Source: Escherichia coli (GTDB lineage: Bacteria > Pseudomonadota > Gammaproteobacteria > Enterobacterales > Enterobacteriaceae). Taken from it: 64,000 bases of DNA. Position 1 is the first letter of the stretch. The number at the start of each line of letters is the position of its first letter. Position numbers: made by a program. Positions 44,501-47,500 of this stretch are shown piece after piece. The stretch lies in the NCBI RefSeq assembly GCF_017348835.2, contig NZ_CP071375.1. One strand, given 5' to 3'.

Positions 44501-47500
44501 TGCGAAATGTCTGCGGGGTTGGCATAAACGGTACATTCTTGTCAGAACCACGTTCATCCTCAACATGGATATTAATGATATAGGGCTGATCGCTGGTATT
44601 TCGCAACTGGATGGTTTTTTCCTTTGCGTCACCAGGGAAAATAATACGGGTTCCGGTCATTACCACGCTGGCAAACGCGCTGCTGCTCATGCTCATGGAA
44701 AATACAAGTACCAGTAAATATGCAAAAATGTTCATTCTTATCTTTTCCATGTTCATGAAAAATCACTATTAATTGTGCAAAGAAATACTGGCTGACATTT
44801 ACTGCCAGCCAGTAGATTAATTAGAGGTAGCTCAGGGTGTATTCTGCGACAGCGGTAATTTTACCGGCAGTGGCAGCAGCGCTATCGATAACGAAGTAAC
44901 GCGCACCGAAGTCGTAGCTGGCTTCGGTATCGCCAACTTTCAGGGTCAGACCCGGTACGTTAGTCGCGCCAGCCAGAGTTACTGGGTTACCAGAAGTGCT
45001 GGAATCCATTAACTGAATGCCAAAGCCTTTCGCAGCATCGCTGCTGGTATCACGGTTTCCCATAACACCCGTGCTAGCGTCAACGTCGTAGCCCAGGAAG
45101 GTGGTGTTGATTGCCTGATCTGCACCAGTTGGAGCCTGGCAGTTAGACACAGAAACCGTAAACGGCGTCTGGCCTGCGCTCTGACCATCAGCTAAAGTTG
45201 CACCGAAGTCAGCCATGGCTACGGTCGGCATCAATACTACTGAATTGGTTTGACCGTTGATATTTACGGAACAGGTCTGATCGGTTACTTCACCCTGAAA
45301 AGTGACTGTAGGCGCAGCCATAGTTGAAAAAGGTAATGCAATAGCTGCCAGCAGAGCTGCTTTTTTGAAAGTAGAAAACATATTAATATCCTTGAAATTT
45401 AGAGTTAATATAGAACGAGTTAATTAATGCAATTGATACAATCTGACGTTTTTAAAACCGGTAAATCTCCTTAACTGTATAAGTGCCTTGAAAATGTAAA
45501 AGCCATCACTATCACAAGCAATTTCAAACTTGTTAAAAACTGATATTTTATAGTGACTAATATACTTGACATCCTTTTTTAGCAGGGTGTGCAATATTCT
45601 TTTGTTATCTATCTTAAAATATAAGTAATAGATATCCCACTCATACCTTGTCAGAGTCACCTGCCTGACTTGCTGGTCTTTATCAGTACTTTTAATCAAA
45701 GTAATGAGTTTATTCAATTTTATATATCGGCTAATGAATGTTTGCTCTGAAAGTGAAAAGAAGATATTTCTGTTTTTCATCTTTCTTAGTGAAACAATCA
45801 TTAAAAACCTGGCCAAATCTGGCAGTTTTGCAAGTATACTTACGTCATCCACTGCGACAAGAAGTACGTTTTTTGTAAAGCGGTTGTCAAATCTAAGTGT
45901 ACTTAGGTCATTATTGCATGCATTTTGAGAACAAAAAAAACACTCAATAAAAAAACGATAATGGTGACCTAGTTTTGCACTTAATCCCTGAAGGTAATAT
46001 AGATCATCCGAAATGATAATTACCCTTGTTAGTAAGTTCTTGTTCATTGCACTAACTCAATTGCTTGCAGCAAAACAGCCCATCTTCATGGAGTAAAAAT
46101 TTTGAAAGTGAATAAAGCTTTTTACTAAAGATGTAACAATGGGCATTCCATATGCGACATAACAACTGCAGTAACACAACTAATCTTTGCGTGTTCTTTA
46201 TATTAGAGAGTAACAGCGTGATATCTGTATCTCTAAAAGAATAGCGATGTCCTGCAATCGATGAGCACAATATATGACATTCATCACATGTATAACAATT
46301 GAATTTTCATTCATACTAATGTTGAACGGTAATATAGTAATTTAATTCTTACCGAAAGATGATGATCAGAGTTTTATTCTGGGTAAGGAGGGTTTTTGCG
46401 ATTTTCTCAGGTTGTAAATTCTGCATAATGGCTGAACCTATTACTTTTTATGTCAAAAAAGCCATTTTTATAAGAATAAAACAACGATATTTAAGAGTGC
46501 TGGCAGCGGAGAAAAGGGTTAATACAGTCATTTAAGATTACTTCAGCTTTTCCTGTAGTGAAAAATGAGCGGAATTGTAGCGCAGTCTGTAAAAAACAAC
46601 TCATCTTAACTAATAAAAAATCGCTAATAATCATTGCTTTAGATTGATTTGTTGTAAAATAATAACAACATTATAAAAATCATTACAATCTTTAATTTTG
46701 AATAACATTTTTATGAAGGCAAGAGTACGTTAAGGGATGATGTATAGCGGTGATTGGTATTAGATGGGAATGAAACCTTGTAAAACCGTTTTGCCCTTCT
46801 TTCTCCCTTTCAACGATAAGCCAGACATAATGTGGCTGCTTAAGCCAATTGTCGCAAAGCCAAAGATCTCTCTATATAGCTAACCTCACGGTTAATCCGA
46901 TTTCAGTATTACCGTGAGCAAGAACTATTTCCTTTTATATAACTCTTAAGGGTTACAAGCGTGAATACAAATGGTAATATAATGAAATGGTGCCTGCCCG
47001 TAATGACCATAACGAATCTACCCCGACGTAAAAGATATAGAGAATAAGATGCAGTAATGCTGATGCTTTGTTAATCAAATGACAAGATTTAAATTAATTG
47101 TAGCTCACCAACTTTGTTGTTTTATTCGGATGTCTGAAATGATGTCGTACAGAAAACTACATATCATTTCAGATATCCTCTAAATTGGATTTTTTTCACC
47201 CAAGGAGGAAGGATGGGAAACTTTTAAATTATTGTGTTTTAGTAAGTTAGGTACTTCGCCGTTCGATGAAAAAACAATAACTCTTAGTTGTTTTTTGAGT
47301 CCTTATTTCAGCTTATTTTTCGTGATTTTTTATTGCGCCTGGTGATAGGATTTGCCGCAATCATTTTTGCTGATATTCCGTGAGTCATCAAAAGTGATCT
47401 GCATGTCCAAAATGAATAGCATCAATAAGGAAAACGTTAGTGGCGATGATAAATTTAAGTAAGGAAGCAACGGTGGGTAAAGCATTAACCCCTATTGCTA

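What the first reader, a model, noticed from the sequence alone, without database searches (positions are those of the whole stretch)
46048..47439. About 1.4-kb AT-rich non-coding region between the fimbrial regulator and tpsA
An unusually long intergenic region with poly-A/T tracts and no convincing ORF separates two divergent adhesin loci. Such regions often hold complex promoters under H-NS silencing, or phase-variation switches; small RNAs are also possible.
Basis: seen in the sequence. Interest (0 to 1): 0.35.

Follow-up and report, generated by a model that had tools for sequence, protein, structure and literature searches.

The report
AT-rich spacer between two adhesin operons
This is the long, gene-free, AT-rich stretch between the loc6 fimbrial operon and the otpAB secretion genes on the known E. 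coli genomic island OI-47. It looks like an ordinary, probably silenced, two-way promoter region and not a phase-variation switch, and only its two ends and one hairpin are conserved.

Summary
Window 46048-47439 (to 47472 if otpA starts at the second GTG) is a 1.4-kb gap with 33.8% G+C, against 47.9% for the window. It has no conserved ORF, no Rfam match and no annotated feature in 12 E. coli records.

The window is E. coli island OI-47 (O157:H7 naming). The gap lies between ECs1281, the first gene of the loc6 fimbrial operon, and otpA (ECs1282/Z1542). It is present in 380 of 5426 complete E. coli genomes.

No evidence supports an invertible or Dam-type phase switch. All 380 copies are collinear, no recombinase gene lies nearby, and no flanking repeats are conserved.

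The middle of the gap (about 46323-47060) diverges at the synonymous rate of the flanking genes and is mosaic through recombination. Three parts are constrained:
- The ~275 bp next to ECs1281, holding a sigma-70-like promoter (TTGTTA-N18-TATATT) kept in three lineages.
- The ~250-400 bp next to otpA.
- A 51-nt hairpin (47128-47178) kept, with compensatory changes, even in a copy of the island from another genus.

H-NS silencing is plausible from composition but untested. ECs1281 has no family hit, but its predicted fold matches RcsB/NarL-type regulators.

Verdict: an ordinary member of a known kind, of low interest, with the hairpin as the only loose end.

The parts
46048..47472 (.). The whole AT-rich gap between ECs1281 (first gene of the loc6 operon) and otpA. 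The annotated right edge is 47439.
   Evidence: 1425 bp, G+C 0.338. No annotated feature in 12 records.
45424..46047 (-). The 207-aa ORF (ECs1281, WP_001039007.1), first gene of the loc6 fimbrial operon. It is a putative atypical NarL/FixJ-type (receiver + LuxR helix-turn-helix) regulator.
   Evidence: No Pfam or NCBIfam hit. Purifying selection: dN/dS about 0, with 8-13 synonymous against 0-2 replacement changes. AlphaFold pLDDT 83; the top 31 Foldseek hits are RcsB, EvgA, NarL, FixJ and similar. Weak GerE and RcsB sequence signals. Relatives lie upstream of fimA-papD-usher genes.
46048..46322 (-). Conserved left end: the predicted 5' leader and promoter region of ECs1281-loc6.
   Evidence: Divergence among E. 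coli alleles is 0-0.041, against a synonymous divergence (dS) of up to about 0.12 in flanking genes.
46269..46298 (-). Sigma-70-like promoter TTGTTA-N18-TATATT, with a predicted start near 46262 and a leader of about 215 nt.
   Evidence: Found by the scan. The -35 hexamer TTGT(T/G)A, the 18-bp spacing and an invariant TATATT are kept in three lineages whose ECs1281 proteins are only 53-55% identical.
46323..47060 (.). Fast-evolving middle spacer with no detectable function.
   Evidence: Nucleotide diversity 0.05-0.13, against 0.002-0.03 in the adjacent flanks from 44300 to 48400. Measured over 46323-47220, Jukes-Cantor distance is 0.03-0.12, similar to the dS of flanking genes. Not alignable with the copy from another genus. 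Mosaic: 5.8% different from Sakai while the flanks are nearly identical.
47128..47178 (+). Conserved long hairpin or palindrome. The core is TCTGAAATGAT-N19-ATCATTTCAGA, giving an 18+3 bp stem and an 8-nt loop. A T7 run follows at 47190-47196.
   Evidence: -30.8 kcal/mol, z -3.85; 0 matches expected by chance. The stem is kept in 18 E. coli alleles, with two fully compensated pairs in the L003-type alleles and wobble pairs that fit the plus strand. It is also kept in the other-genus copy, with a different inner stem and loop.
47221..47472 (+). Conserved right end: the otpA-proximal control region and leader. Weaker conservation extends left to about 47060.
   Evidence: Divergence 0-0.041 among E. 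coli alleles. About 75% identity to the other-genus copy, including an exact 23-mer at 47313-47335. No canonical sigma-70 promoter is shared.
47440..51252 (+). otpA (ECs1282/Z1542), the exoprotein of a two-partner secretion system. otpB follows at 51341-52960.
   Evidence: Pfam TPS domain and haemagglutinin repeats. Annotation. Named otpAB in the literature.

Best explanation
The gap is the shared, divergent control region of two horizontally acquired adhesin units on E. coli island OI-47. One unit is ECs1281-loc6 fimbriae, read leftward. The other is otpAB, read rightward.

Only the gene-proximal parts carry information:
- About 275 bp on the left hold a sigma-70-like promoter (46298-46269, minus strand) and a leader of about 215 nt for ECs1281.
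- About 250-400 bp on the right hold the otpA control region. It has no good sigma-70 consensus and is therefore probably activator-dependent.
- This right-hand region includes a 51-nt hairpin about 300 nt upstream of the start codon.

The 750-900 bp in between is spacer. It drifts at the neutral rate and is exchanged between strains by recombination.

The 2.4-kb block with 33% G+C, which also covers ECs1281, is the kind of DNA that H-NS coats. Both units are therefore most likely silent in ordinary culture and switched on by island-encoded regulators. Candidates are ECs1281 itself and the ToxR-like GrvA/FidL pair.

Shown here: the composition, the absence of genes and known RNAs, the pattern of constraint, the conserved promoter-like site and hairpin, and the absence of inversions.

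Inferred: H-NS occupancy, which promoter is used, who binds where, and what the hairpin does.
For: - Identity of the locus.
- Composition.
- No gene or RNA. No small gene was reported here in the supplements of the Sakai ribosome-profiling study.
- Constraint at both ends and a neutral middle.
- Conservation across genera is limited to the ends and the hairpin. The comparator host's core gene actS is only about 74% identical to E. coli.
- The promoter-like site is kept in three lineages.
- EDL933 Cappable-seq lists no start site upstream of otpA in eight conditions. The only start is at 1436432, about window 47511, inside the gene, in two conditions.
- ECs1281 has a regulator-like fold and its relatives are linked to fimbrial operons.
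- GrvA/FidL is a ToxR/ToxS-like cassette related to MarT/FidL, which activates an adhesin gene in Salmonella.
Against: - H-NS binding was not measured, and I found no published occupancy data for this gap.
- No H-NS high-affinity motif lies in the gap.
- Promoter-like sites are no more frequent than in shuffled sequence.
- No otpA promoter could be pinned down.
- The table of orphan start sites in the Cappable-seq paper was truncated in the held copy. Transcription from inside the gap therefore cannot be excluded.
- A neutral rate in the middle does not prove that it has no function. Length or curvature could matter.
Confidence: 0.7

Rival explanations
1. The gap holds an invertible promoter segment (fimS-like) or a Dam/Lrp methylation switch (pap-like) that turns the fimbriae or OtpA on and off.
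For: Long AT-rich regions upstream of fimbrial operons sometimes hold such switches (general knowledge). The repeat finder reports a 20-nt inverted repeat at 85% complementarity, 46612-46631 and 47315-47334, enclosing 683 bp.
Against: - All 380 complete genomes have the region as one collinear piece. All 40 sampled rows show 100% coverage in a single piece.
- The 18 fetched E. coli alleles are collinear, and the other-genus copy aligns collinearly at its conserved blocks.
- The left arm of that repeat varies among alleles and is absent from the other-genus copy.
- No recombinase gene lies within the 26-40 kb examined, apart from an integrase beyond the island's end.
- There are three GATC sites where about 4.5 are expected from composition. 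Only one (47396) is conserved.
- No papI/papB-like genes are annotated.
Confidence: 0.03
2. The hairpin at 47128-47178 marks an unannotated RNA element. It could be the 3' end of a small RNA made from the plus strand. It could instead be a structure in a long otpA leader that controls elongation, stability (a 21-bp stem is an RNase III-sized substrate) or translation.
For: - The hairpin is far more stable than shuffled sequence.
- It is conserved across genera in otherwise unalignable DNA, with the same 19-nt spacing.
- It shows compensated pairs and G-U pairs that work only on the plus strand.
- T-rich runs follow it. In the other-genus copy a second, terminator-like hairpin with a T-run precedes it.
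- A partly conserved -35-like TTGTTA at 47068 would place the hairpin at about +26 to +76 of a transcript.
Against: - No Rfam family matches.
- The stem is AU-rich and the T7 run starts 11 nt after it, so it is not a canonical terminator. The scan found no plus-strand terminator.
- No conserved promoter lies upstream.
- No start site is recorded upstream of otpA.
- Palindromes can keep their symmetry through template-switch repair without any selection on RNA.
- Only two wobble events support the strand assignment, which has about a 1 in 4 probability by chance.
Confidence: 0.15
3. The hairpin is a DNA operator for an island regulator (ECs1281 or GrvA) that couples fimbrial and OtpA expression.
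For: - The conserved 11-bp half sites are in inverted orientation at a fixed spacing.
- ECs1281 has a LuxR-type DNA-binding fold.
- LuxR-type proteins bind inverted repeats (general knowledge).
Against: - The 30-bp centre-to-centre spacing is unusual for a simple dimer.
- Compensatory changes in the outer and inner stem are not expected for protein half-sites.
- No binding data exist.
Confidence: 0.1
4. The middle of the gap is the eroded remnant of a gene. The most likely candidate is the ~256-aa EAL phosphodiesterase gene that directly precedes the ECs1281 homologue in distant relatives.
For: - In three distant relatives the order is GrvA-like/FidL-like, then divergently EAL, then the ECs1281 homologue.
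- An EAL gene of about 770 bp would fit the extra length.
- The middle evolves neutrally, as a dead gene would.
Against: - tblastn with five such EAL proteins gives only noise, with a best E of 0.42.
- The six-frame Pfam scan finds no EAL or other domain.
- The E. coli and other-genus copies of the spacer do not align with each other.
Confidence: 0.12

Closest known systems
H-NS-silenced, AT-rich regulatory regions of horizontally acquired adhesin operons in E. coli, such as the ecp/mat operon with its LuxR-type first gene ecpR, or the lpf and LEE promoters (from general knowledge, not tested here)
   Same: Low G+C relative to the genome. The location is on a genomic island. A small LuxR-fold gene is the first gene of the fimbrial operon. 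The locus is silent in standard culture. Constraint is limited to the promoter-proximal DNA.
   Different: H-NS, Ler or regulator binding has not been shown for this gap. The gap is unusually long (1.4 kb) and serves two divergent units.
fimS-type invertible phase switch of type 1 fimbriae
   Same: It lies upstream of a chaperone-usher fimbrial operon and is AT-rich.
   Different: There are no conserved flanking inverted repeats, no recombinase gene, and no inverted copy among 380 genomes.
Fimbrial clusters that carry LuxR-type and EAL regulators (Salmonella fimZ/fimY/STM0551/fimW; Klebsiella mrkH/mrkI/mrkJ), recalled from the literature
   Same: Distant relatives of ECs1281 lie between an EAL gene and the fimbrial subunit gene. 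ECs1281 has the receiver + LuxR fold.
   Different: In OI-47 no EAL gene precedes ECs1281. ECs1281 is too diverged to hit the GerE family. I did not test relatedness to FimZ, FimW or MrkI directly.
MarT/FidL control of the misL adhesin gene on Salmonella SPI-3
   Same: OI-47 encodes the related GrvA/FidL pair. In distant relatives that pair sits divergently next to the EAL-ECs1281-fimbrial unit.
   Different: No evidence shows that GrvA acts on this gap. In OI-47 the pair lies about 8 kb away, at the other end of loc6.

Membership tests
Invertible DNA phase switch (fimS type) | Both orientations of a segment occur among or within strains | tested here: not met
   380 of 380 genomes have one collinear piece. 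All 40 sampled rows show 100% coverage. All 18 fetched E. coli alleles are collinear, and the other-genus copy aligns collinearly at its conserved blocks.
Invertible DNA phase switch (fimS type) | Conserved short inverted repeats flank the segment | tested here: not met
   The best pair (46612-46631 / 47315-47334) has a left arm that varies between alleles and is missing from the other-genus copy.
Invertible DNA phase switch (fimS type) | A site-specific recombinase gene lies nearby | tested here: not met
   None is annotated within the island neighbourhood.
Dam/Lrp methylation switch (pap type) | Two conserved GATC sites about 100 bp apart, plus papI/papB-like genes | tested here: not met
   The three GATC sites are about 500 bp apart and only 47396 is conserved. 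No papI/papB-like genes are annotated.
H-NS-silenced xenogeneic DNA | G+C well below the genome average, on an accessory island | tested here: met
   G+C 0.338 against 0.479 for the window. Present in 380 of 5426 genomes. Identified as OI-47.
H-NS-silenced xenogeneic DNA | H-NS occupancy, and derepression in an hns mutant | not testable with these tools
   No ChIP or hns-mutant data for this gap were found in the papers held.
H-NS-silenced xenogeneic DNA | A high-affinity nucleation motif (TCGATAAATT-like) | tested here: not met
   No match with up to one mismatch lies inside 46048-47472. The window-wide count equals chance. The motif is not required for H-NS binding.
H-NS-silenced xenogeneic DNA | Transcriptionally silent in standard culture | tested here: inconclusive
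   EDL933 Cappable-seq lists no start site upstream of otpA in 8 conditions. The only start is inside the gene, in 2 conditions. The orphan-TSS table was truncated.
Known RNA families (Rfam 15) | A covariance-model match at or near the gathering score | tested here: not met
   Only miRNA models matched, at E 0.5-0.9 and far below their gathering scores. Nothing in the gap reached the gathering threshold.
Intrinsic (Rho-independent) terminator | A G+C-rich stem followed at once by a U-run | tested here: not met
   The hairpin stem is AU-rich and the T7 run starts 11 nt after it. The scan found no plus-strand terminator.
NarL/FixJ (LuxR-type) response regulators (for the flanking 207-aa ORF) | Sequence match to the GerE/LuxR helix-turn-helix family | tested here: not met
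   No Pfam or NCBIfam hit for the protein itself. 3 of 11 family members hit GerE below threshold, with a best E of 0.003. The family profile matches the RcsB C-terminal domain at E 0.43.
NarL/FixJ (LuxR-type) response regulators (for the flanking 207-aa ORF) | Two-domain fold: receiver domain plus four-helix DNA-binding domain | tested here: met
   AlphaFold pLDDT 83, pTM 0.78. Foldseek top hits are full-length RcsB, EvgA, NarL, FixJ and VpsT, at E 3e-4 and probability about 1.0.
NarL/FixJ (LuxR-type) response regulators (for the flanking 207-aa ORF) | A phospho-acceptor aspartate and a partner kinase | not tested
   Acidic residues D14, D15, D67 and D68 are present in the window protein, but I made no structural superposition or kinase search.

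The most novel reading that the evidence does not exclude
The 51-nt hairpin about 300 nt upstream of otpA may be an undescribed cis-regulatory element. It is conserved between genera in otherwise unalignable DNA and shows compensated base pairs. It could be a leader-RNA structure or an operator. Through it, island regulators (ECs1281, GrvA/FidL) could couple expression of the OtpA exoprotein to that of the neighbouring loc6 fimbriae.
Probability: 0.2. Interest if true: 0.35.

Novelty: new member of a known kind. Interest (0 to 1): 0.2.

Why it matters
OI-47 is carried by essentially all O157:H7 strains, and it encodes regulators (GrvA, VmpA) that affect virulence traits. The function and regulation of its loc6 fimbriae and OtpAB system remain unknown.

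This work marks the few hundred bases that are under constraint. These are a promoter-like site for ECs1281-loc6, the otpA-proximal block, and one hairpin. It also shows that ECs1281 has a regulator fold. Anyone who wants to switch these silent adhesin genes on now has a short list of targets.

Beyond that, the region is a routine example of AT-rich island DNA and does not open a new question.

Tried and rejected
- **Hidden genes:** A six-frame Pfam scan of the gap found nothing.
- **Shine-Dalgarno sequences:** Two perfect AAGGAGG sequences on the plus strand (46384, 47203) looked suggestive but are not kept in other alleles.
- **Hydrophobic ORF:** A 31-aa hydrophobic ORF (47288-47383) shows a coding-like substitution pattern against the other-genus copy. 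It is frameshifted by a T6/T7 length change in Sakai and others, and it lacks a start codon in the other genus. A 13-16-aa version starting at GTG/ATG 47342 remains undecidable.
- **EAL-gene remnant:** tblastn gave only noise.
- **Repeated or mobile element:** There is one place per genome, no plasmid or phage matches beyond two mis-filed E. coli records, and the hairpin is unique in the window.
- **CRP site in the hairpin loop:** This is seen only in the other-genus copy, so I dismissed it (reading).
- **H-NS motif:** No match in the gap.
- **First structure prediction of ECs1281:** The run with 3 sequences was useless (pLDDT 39). The run with 11 sequences worked.
- **Literature:**
  - The Pch/H-NS ChIP paper does not mention these genes.
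  - The Choi 2007 otpAB paper and the Morgan 2015 GrvA paper are not held.
- **Search for more lineages:**
  - The exact 23-mer found nothing in species-representative genomes.
  - In metagenomes it found only E. coli-type alleles.
  - A degenerate otpA pattern found Kosakonia (72% identical OtpA) and Klebsiella oxytoca (49%). Their upstream contexts are different and shorter and carry no such hairpin.
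Full report
**What and where**

The window is 100% identical over the region to E. 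coli PE164 and 96-98% identical to many other strains, including O157:H7 Sakai and EDL933. The annotated neighbourhood identifies the island known as OI-47 (S-loop 71). In order, it holds:
- dgcT and an EAL gene
- a 163-aa gene plus a winged-helix gene (GrvA/FidL)
- an SDR gene
- a chaperone-usher cluster
- a 207-aa hypothetical gene
- the gap
- a TpsA gene and a TpsB gene
- a fatty-acid-type biosynthesis cluster

The fimbrial cluster is loc6 (ECs1276-1280). The secretion pair is otpAB (ECs1282-1283, Z1542-). The finding is therefore the ECs1281-ECs1282 intergenic region. It occurs once per genome in 380 of 5426 complete E. coli genomes.

**The observation**

- The gap is 1392 bp to the annotated GTG (47440), or 1425 bp to a second in-frame GTG (47473). 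Its G+C is 0.338, against 0.479 for the window.
- The low-GC block is wider, about 45200-47700, and includes the 207-aa ORF.
- No annotation places a feature in the gap in 12 records.
- There is no tRNA gene, no Rfam match above chance, and no Pfam domain in any frame.
- The supplements of a ribosome-profiling survey of Sakai intergenic small genes list nothing at these coordinates.

**Pattern of constraint within E. coli**

I aligned ten alleles with 3 kb of flank on each side.
- Nucleotide diversity is 0.002-0.03 in the adjacent flanks (44300-48400) and 0.05-0.13 in 46323-47220.
- Against the window, the middle differs by 0.03-0.12 (Jukes-Cantor distance). This is the same range as the synonymous divergence (dS) of ECs1281, the fimbrial subunit gene and otpA, at 0.05-0.12.
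- The left 275 bp and the right 250 bp differ by only 0-0.04.
- The flanking genes are under strong purifying selection. ECs1281 has 8-13 synonymous and 0-2 replacement differences, and otpA has dN/dS of about 0.05.
- The middle is mosaic. The window and Sakai have identical ECs1281 sequences, an identical left end and near-identical otpA, yet differ at 50 of 894 positions in the middle. This is a recombination tract.

**Comparison across genera**

ECs1281 is nearly an orphan. Outside E. coli, a word-indexed search found only two lineages, at 53-55% identity. One lineage (loci L011-L014) carries the whole island in the same gene order.
- Its host's core gene actS is only about 74% identical to E. 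coli, so the host belongs to another genus.
- Its structural genes are 82-89% identical in protein. The regulators (ECs1281, GrvA, FidL-like) are 48-55% identical.
- Its gap is 1293 bp with G+C 0.37.
- blastn alignment stops inside ECs1281 (at 45657) and resumes at 47271.
- A global alignment shows three conserved features:
  - a block 220-280 bp upstream of ECs1281
  - the hairpin arms
  - the last ~200 bp before otpA, including an exact 23-mer

**Promoter for ECs1281-loc6**

- The simple scan found TTGTTA-N18-TATATT on the minus strand at 46298-46269.
- In an alignment of three lineages, the -35 hexamer (TTGTTA, TTGTGA, TTGTTA), the 18-bp spacing and the -10 hexamer (TATATT, invariant) are all kept. 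The surrounding DNA is barely alignable.
- This is a phylogenetic footprint, not proof of use.
- It predicts a transcription start near 46262 and a leader of about 215 nt.

**otpA side**

- No canonical sigma-70 promoter is shared by the two lineages, and none was found by the scan.
- In EDL933 Cappable-seq, the only start assigned to otpA lies at 1436432, about window 47511. This is inside the signal-peptide coding region, and it was seen in two of eight conditions. No start is listed within 250 bp upstream.
- This fits a silent, activator-dependent gene. However, the table of orphan starts is truncated in the held copy.

**The hairpin**

- At 47128-47178 an inverted repeat folds into an 18+3 bp stem with an 8-nt loop.
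- A 106-nt segment containing it (47110-47215) has a minimum free energy of -30.8 kcal/mol and a z-score of -3.85 against shuffles, and the hairpin alone accounts for the -27 kcal/mol centroid structure.
- Its core pattern is expected zero times by chance in the window, and no second copy of it occurs in the window. The gap as a whole matches only one place per genome.
- Among 18 E. coli alleles the stem is kept:
  - One allele group carries two fully compensated pairs (G-C to A-T, twice).
  - Two groups carry single transitions that give G-U pairs on the plus strand only.
  - One group has a single mismatch.
- The other-genus copy keeps the 9-11-nt core arms and the 19-nt spacing. Its inner stem (GUGUG/CACAC in place of GUA/UAC) and its loop are different.
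- This argues for selection on pairing. Symmetric repair of palindromes could mimic that signal, however.
- The hairpin is not a canonical terminator. The stem is AU-rich and the T7 run starts 11 nt after it.
- OtpA orthologues in Kosakonia (72% identity) and a more distant TpsA in Klebsiella oxytoca have shorter, unrelated upstream regions without this hairpin.

**Phase variation**

- All 380 genomic copies, 8 metagenomic copies and the other-genus copies are collinear.
- No recombinase gene is nearby.
- The best long-range inverted repeat is not conserved.
- GATC sites are few, about 500 bp apart, and mostly not conserved.
- Short homopolymer length changes exist (A5/A6, T6/T7, T7/T8), but none lies in a defined promoter spacer.

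**The 'regulator'**

- ECs1281 has no family hit.
- An exhaustive profile search found eight further relatives at 23-32% identity.
- With these, AlphaFold gave a confident model. Its best structural matches are full-length RcsB, EvgA, NarL, FixJ and VpsT.
- Three relatives weakly hit GerE, and the family profile weakly matches the RcsB DNA-binding domain.
- In the relatives' genomes the usual order is a GrvA-like/FidL-like pair, then divergently an EAL gene, then the ECs1281 homologue, then fimbrial subunit, chaperone and usher genes. In one relative (L018, L019) the fimbrial genes are absent.
- This supports a fimbria-linked regulator. It also suggested that the gap might hold a dead EAL gene, but no trace of one is detectable.

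**Conclusion**

- The gap is best read as an ordinary AT-rich, island-borne, divergent control region with a long neutral spacer.
- H-NS silencing is likely from established knowledge of how H-NS treats AT-rich acquired DNA. It was not tested here.
- The only feature that goes beyond the ordinary is the conserved hairpin upstream of otpA.

Noticed in passing
window 41459-43981 (minus strand): In this strain the loc6 usher gene is split by an internal stop into a 216-aa and a 609-aa ORF, and PGAP marks it as a pseudogene. It is intact in Sakai and EDL933. In one other strain an IS3 element replaces part of the cluster. Loc6 fimbriae are therefore probably not made by this strain.
   Followed up: partly
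window 46323-47220 compared with L002 (Sakai): The flanks are nearly identical to Sakai, with 0 differences in ECs1281 and 4 in 3 kb of otpA. The middle of the gap differs at 50 of 894 sites. This is a clean ~900-bp recombination tract confined to the spacer. At least three spacer haplotype groups exist among the alleles.
   Followed up: partly
L018 4215-5648; L020 2435-9725; L017 3-5461: Distant relatives of ECs1281 follow a ~256-aa EAL-domain gene by 13-16 bp (overlapping it in L017), and most precede a fimbrial operon. A GrvA-like/FidL-like pair lies divergently upstream in L018-L021. This looks like a recurring fimbrial control module (ToxR-like pair + EAL + atypical LuxR-fold protein) that I have not seen described as a unit.
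   Followed up: partly
window 47440 and 47473: otpA has two plausible GTG starts, each with its own Shine-Dalgarno sequence (AAGGA at 47427, AAGGAAG at 47461). Both are conserved in the other-genus copy. The published Cappable-seq start (about window 47511) lies downstream of both.
   Followed up: partly
window 47288-47383 and 47342-47383 (plus strand): A 31-aa hydrophobic ORF shows several synonymous-looking changes against the other-genus copy (for example CGC to AGG, both Arg). It is frameshifted in Sakai-type alleles. A 13-16-aa ORF starting at a conserved GTG/ATG (47342) could be a leader peptide. This is unresolved.
   Followed up: partly
L011 about 9030-9060 and 9100-9420: The other-genus copy has a terminator-like hairpin (GAGAAAC...GTTTCTC followed by TTTATTTTAT) just upstream of the big hairpin. 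It also has a ~300-bp G+C-richer stretch with a 47-aa ORF that has no match in any E. coli genome.
   Followed up: partly
window 24597-25174 and 134-212: Six tandem copies of the REP-derived naRNA4 (CssrE) element lie at exact 100-bp spacing, with one more copy near the start of the window.
   Followed up: no
window 26318-26511 (minus) and 6096-6138 (minus): There are Rfam matches above the gathering score to Ysr251 (188 bits) and to ES036/CssrF (38.5 bits).
   Followed up: no
window 36500-37808 compared with L011: The island's regulators evolve much faster than its structural genes. GrvA, the FidL-like protein and ECs1281 are 48-55% identical between the two genera. The fimbrial and OtpA/OtpB proteins are 82-89% identical.
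   Followed up: partly
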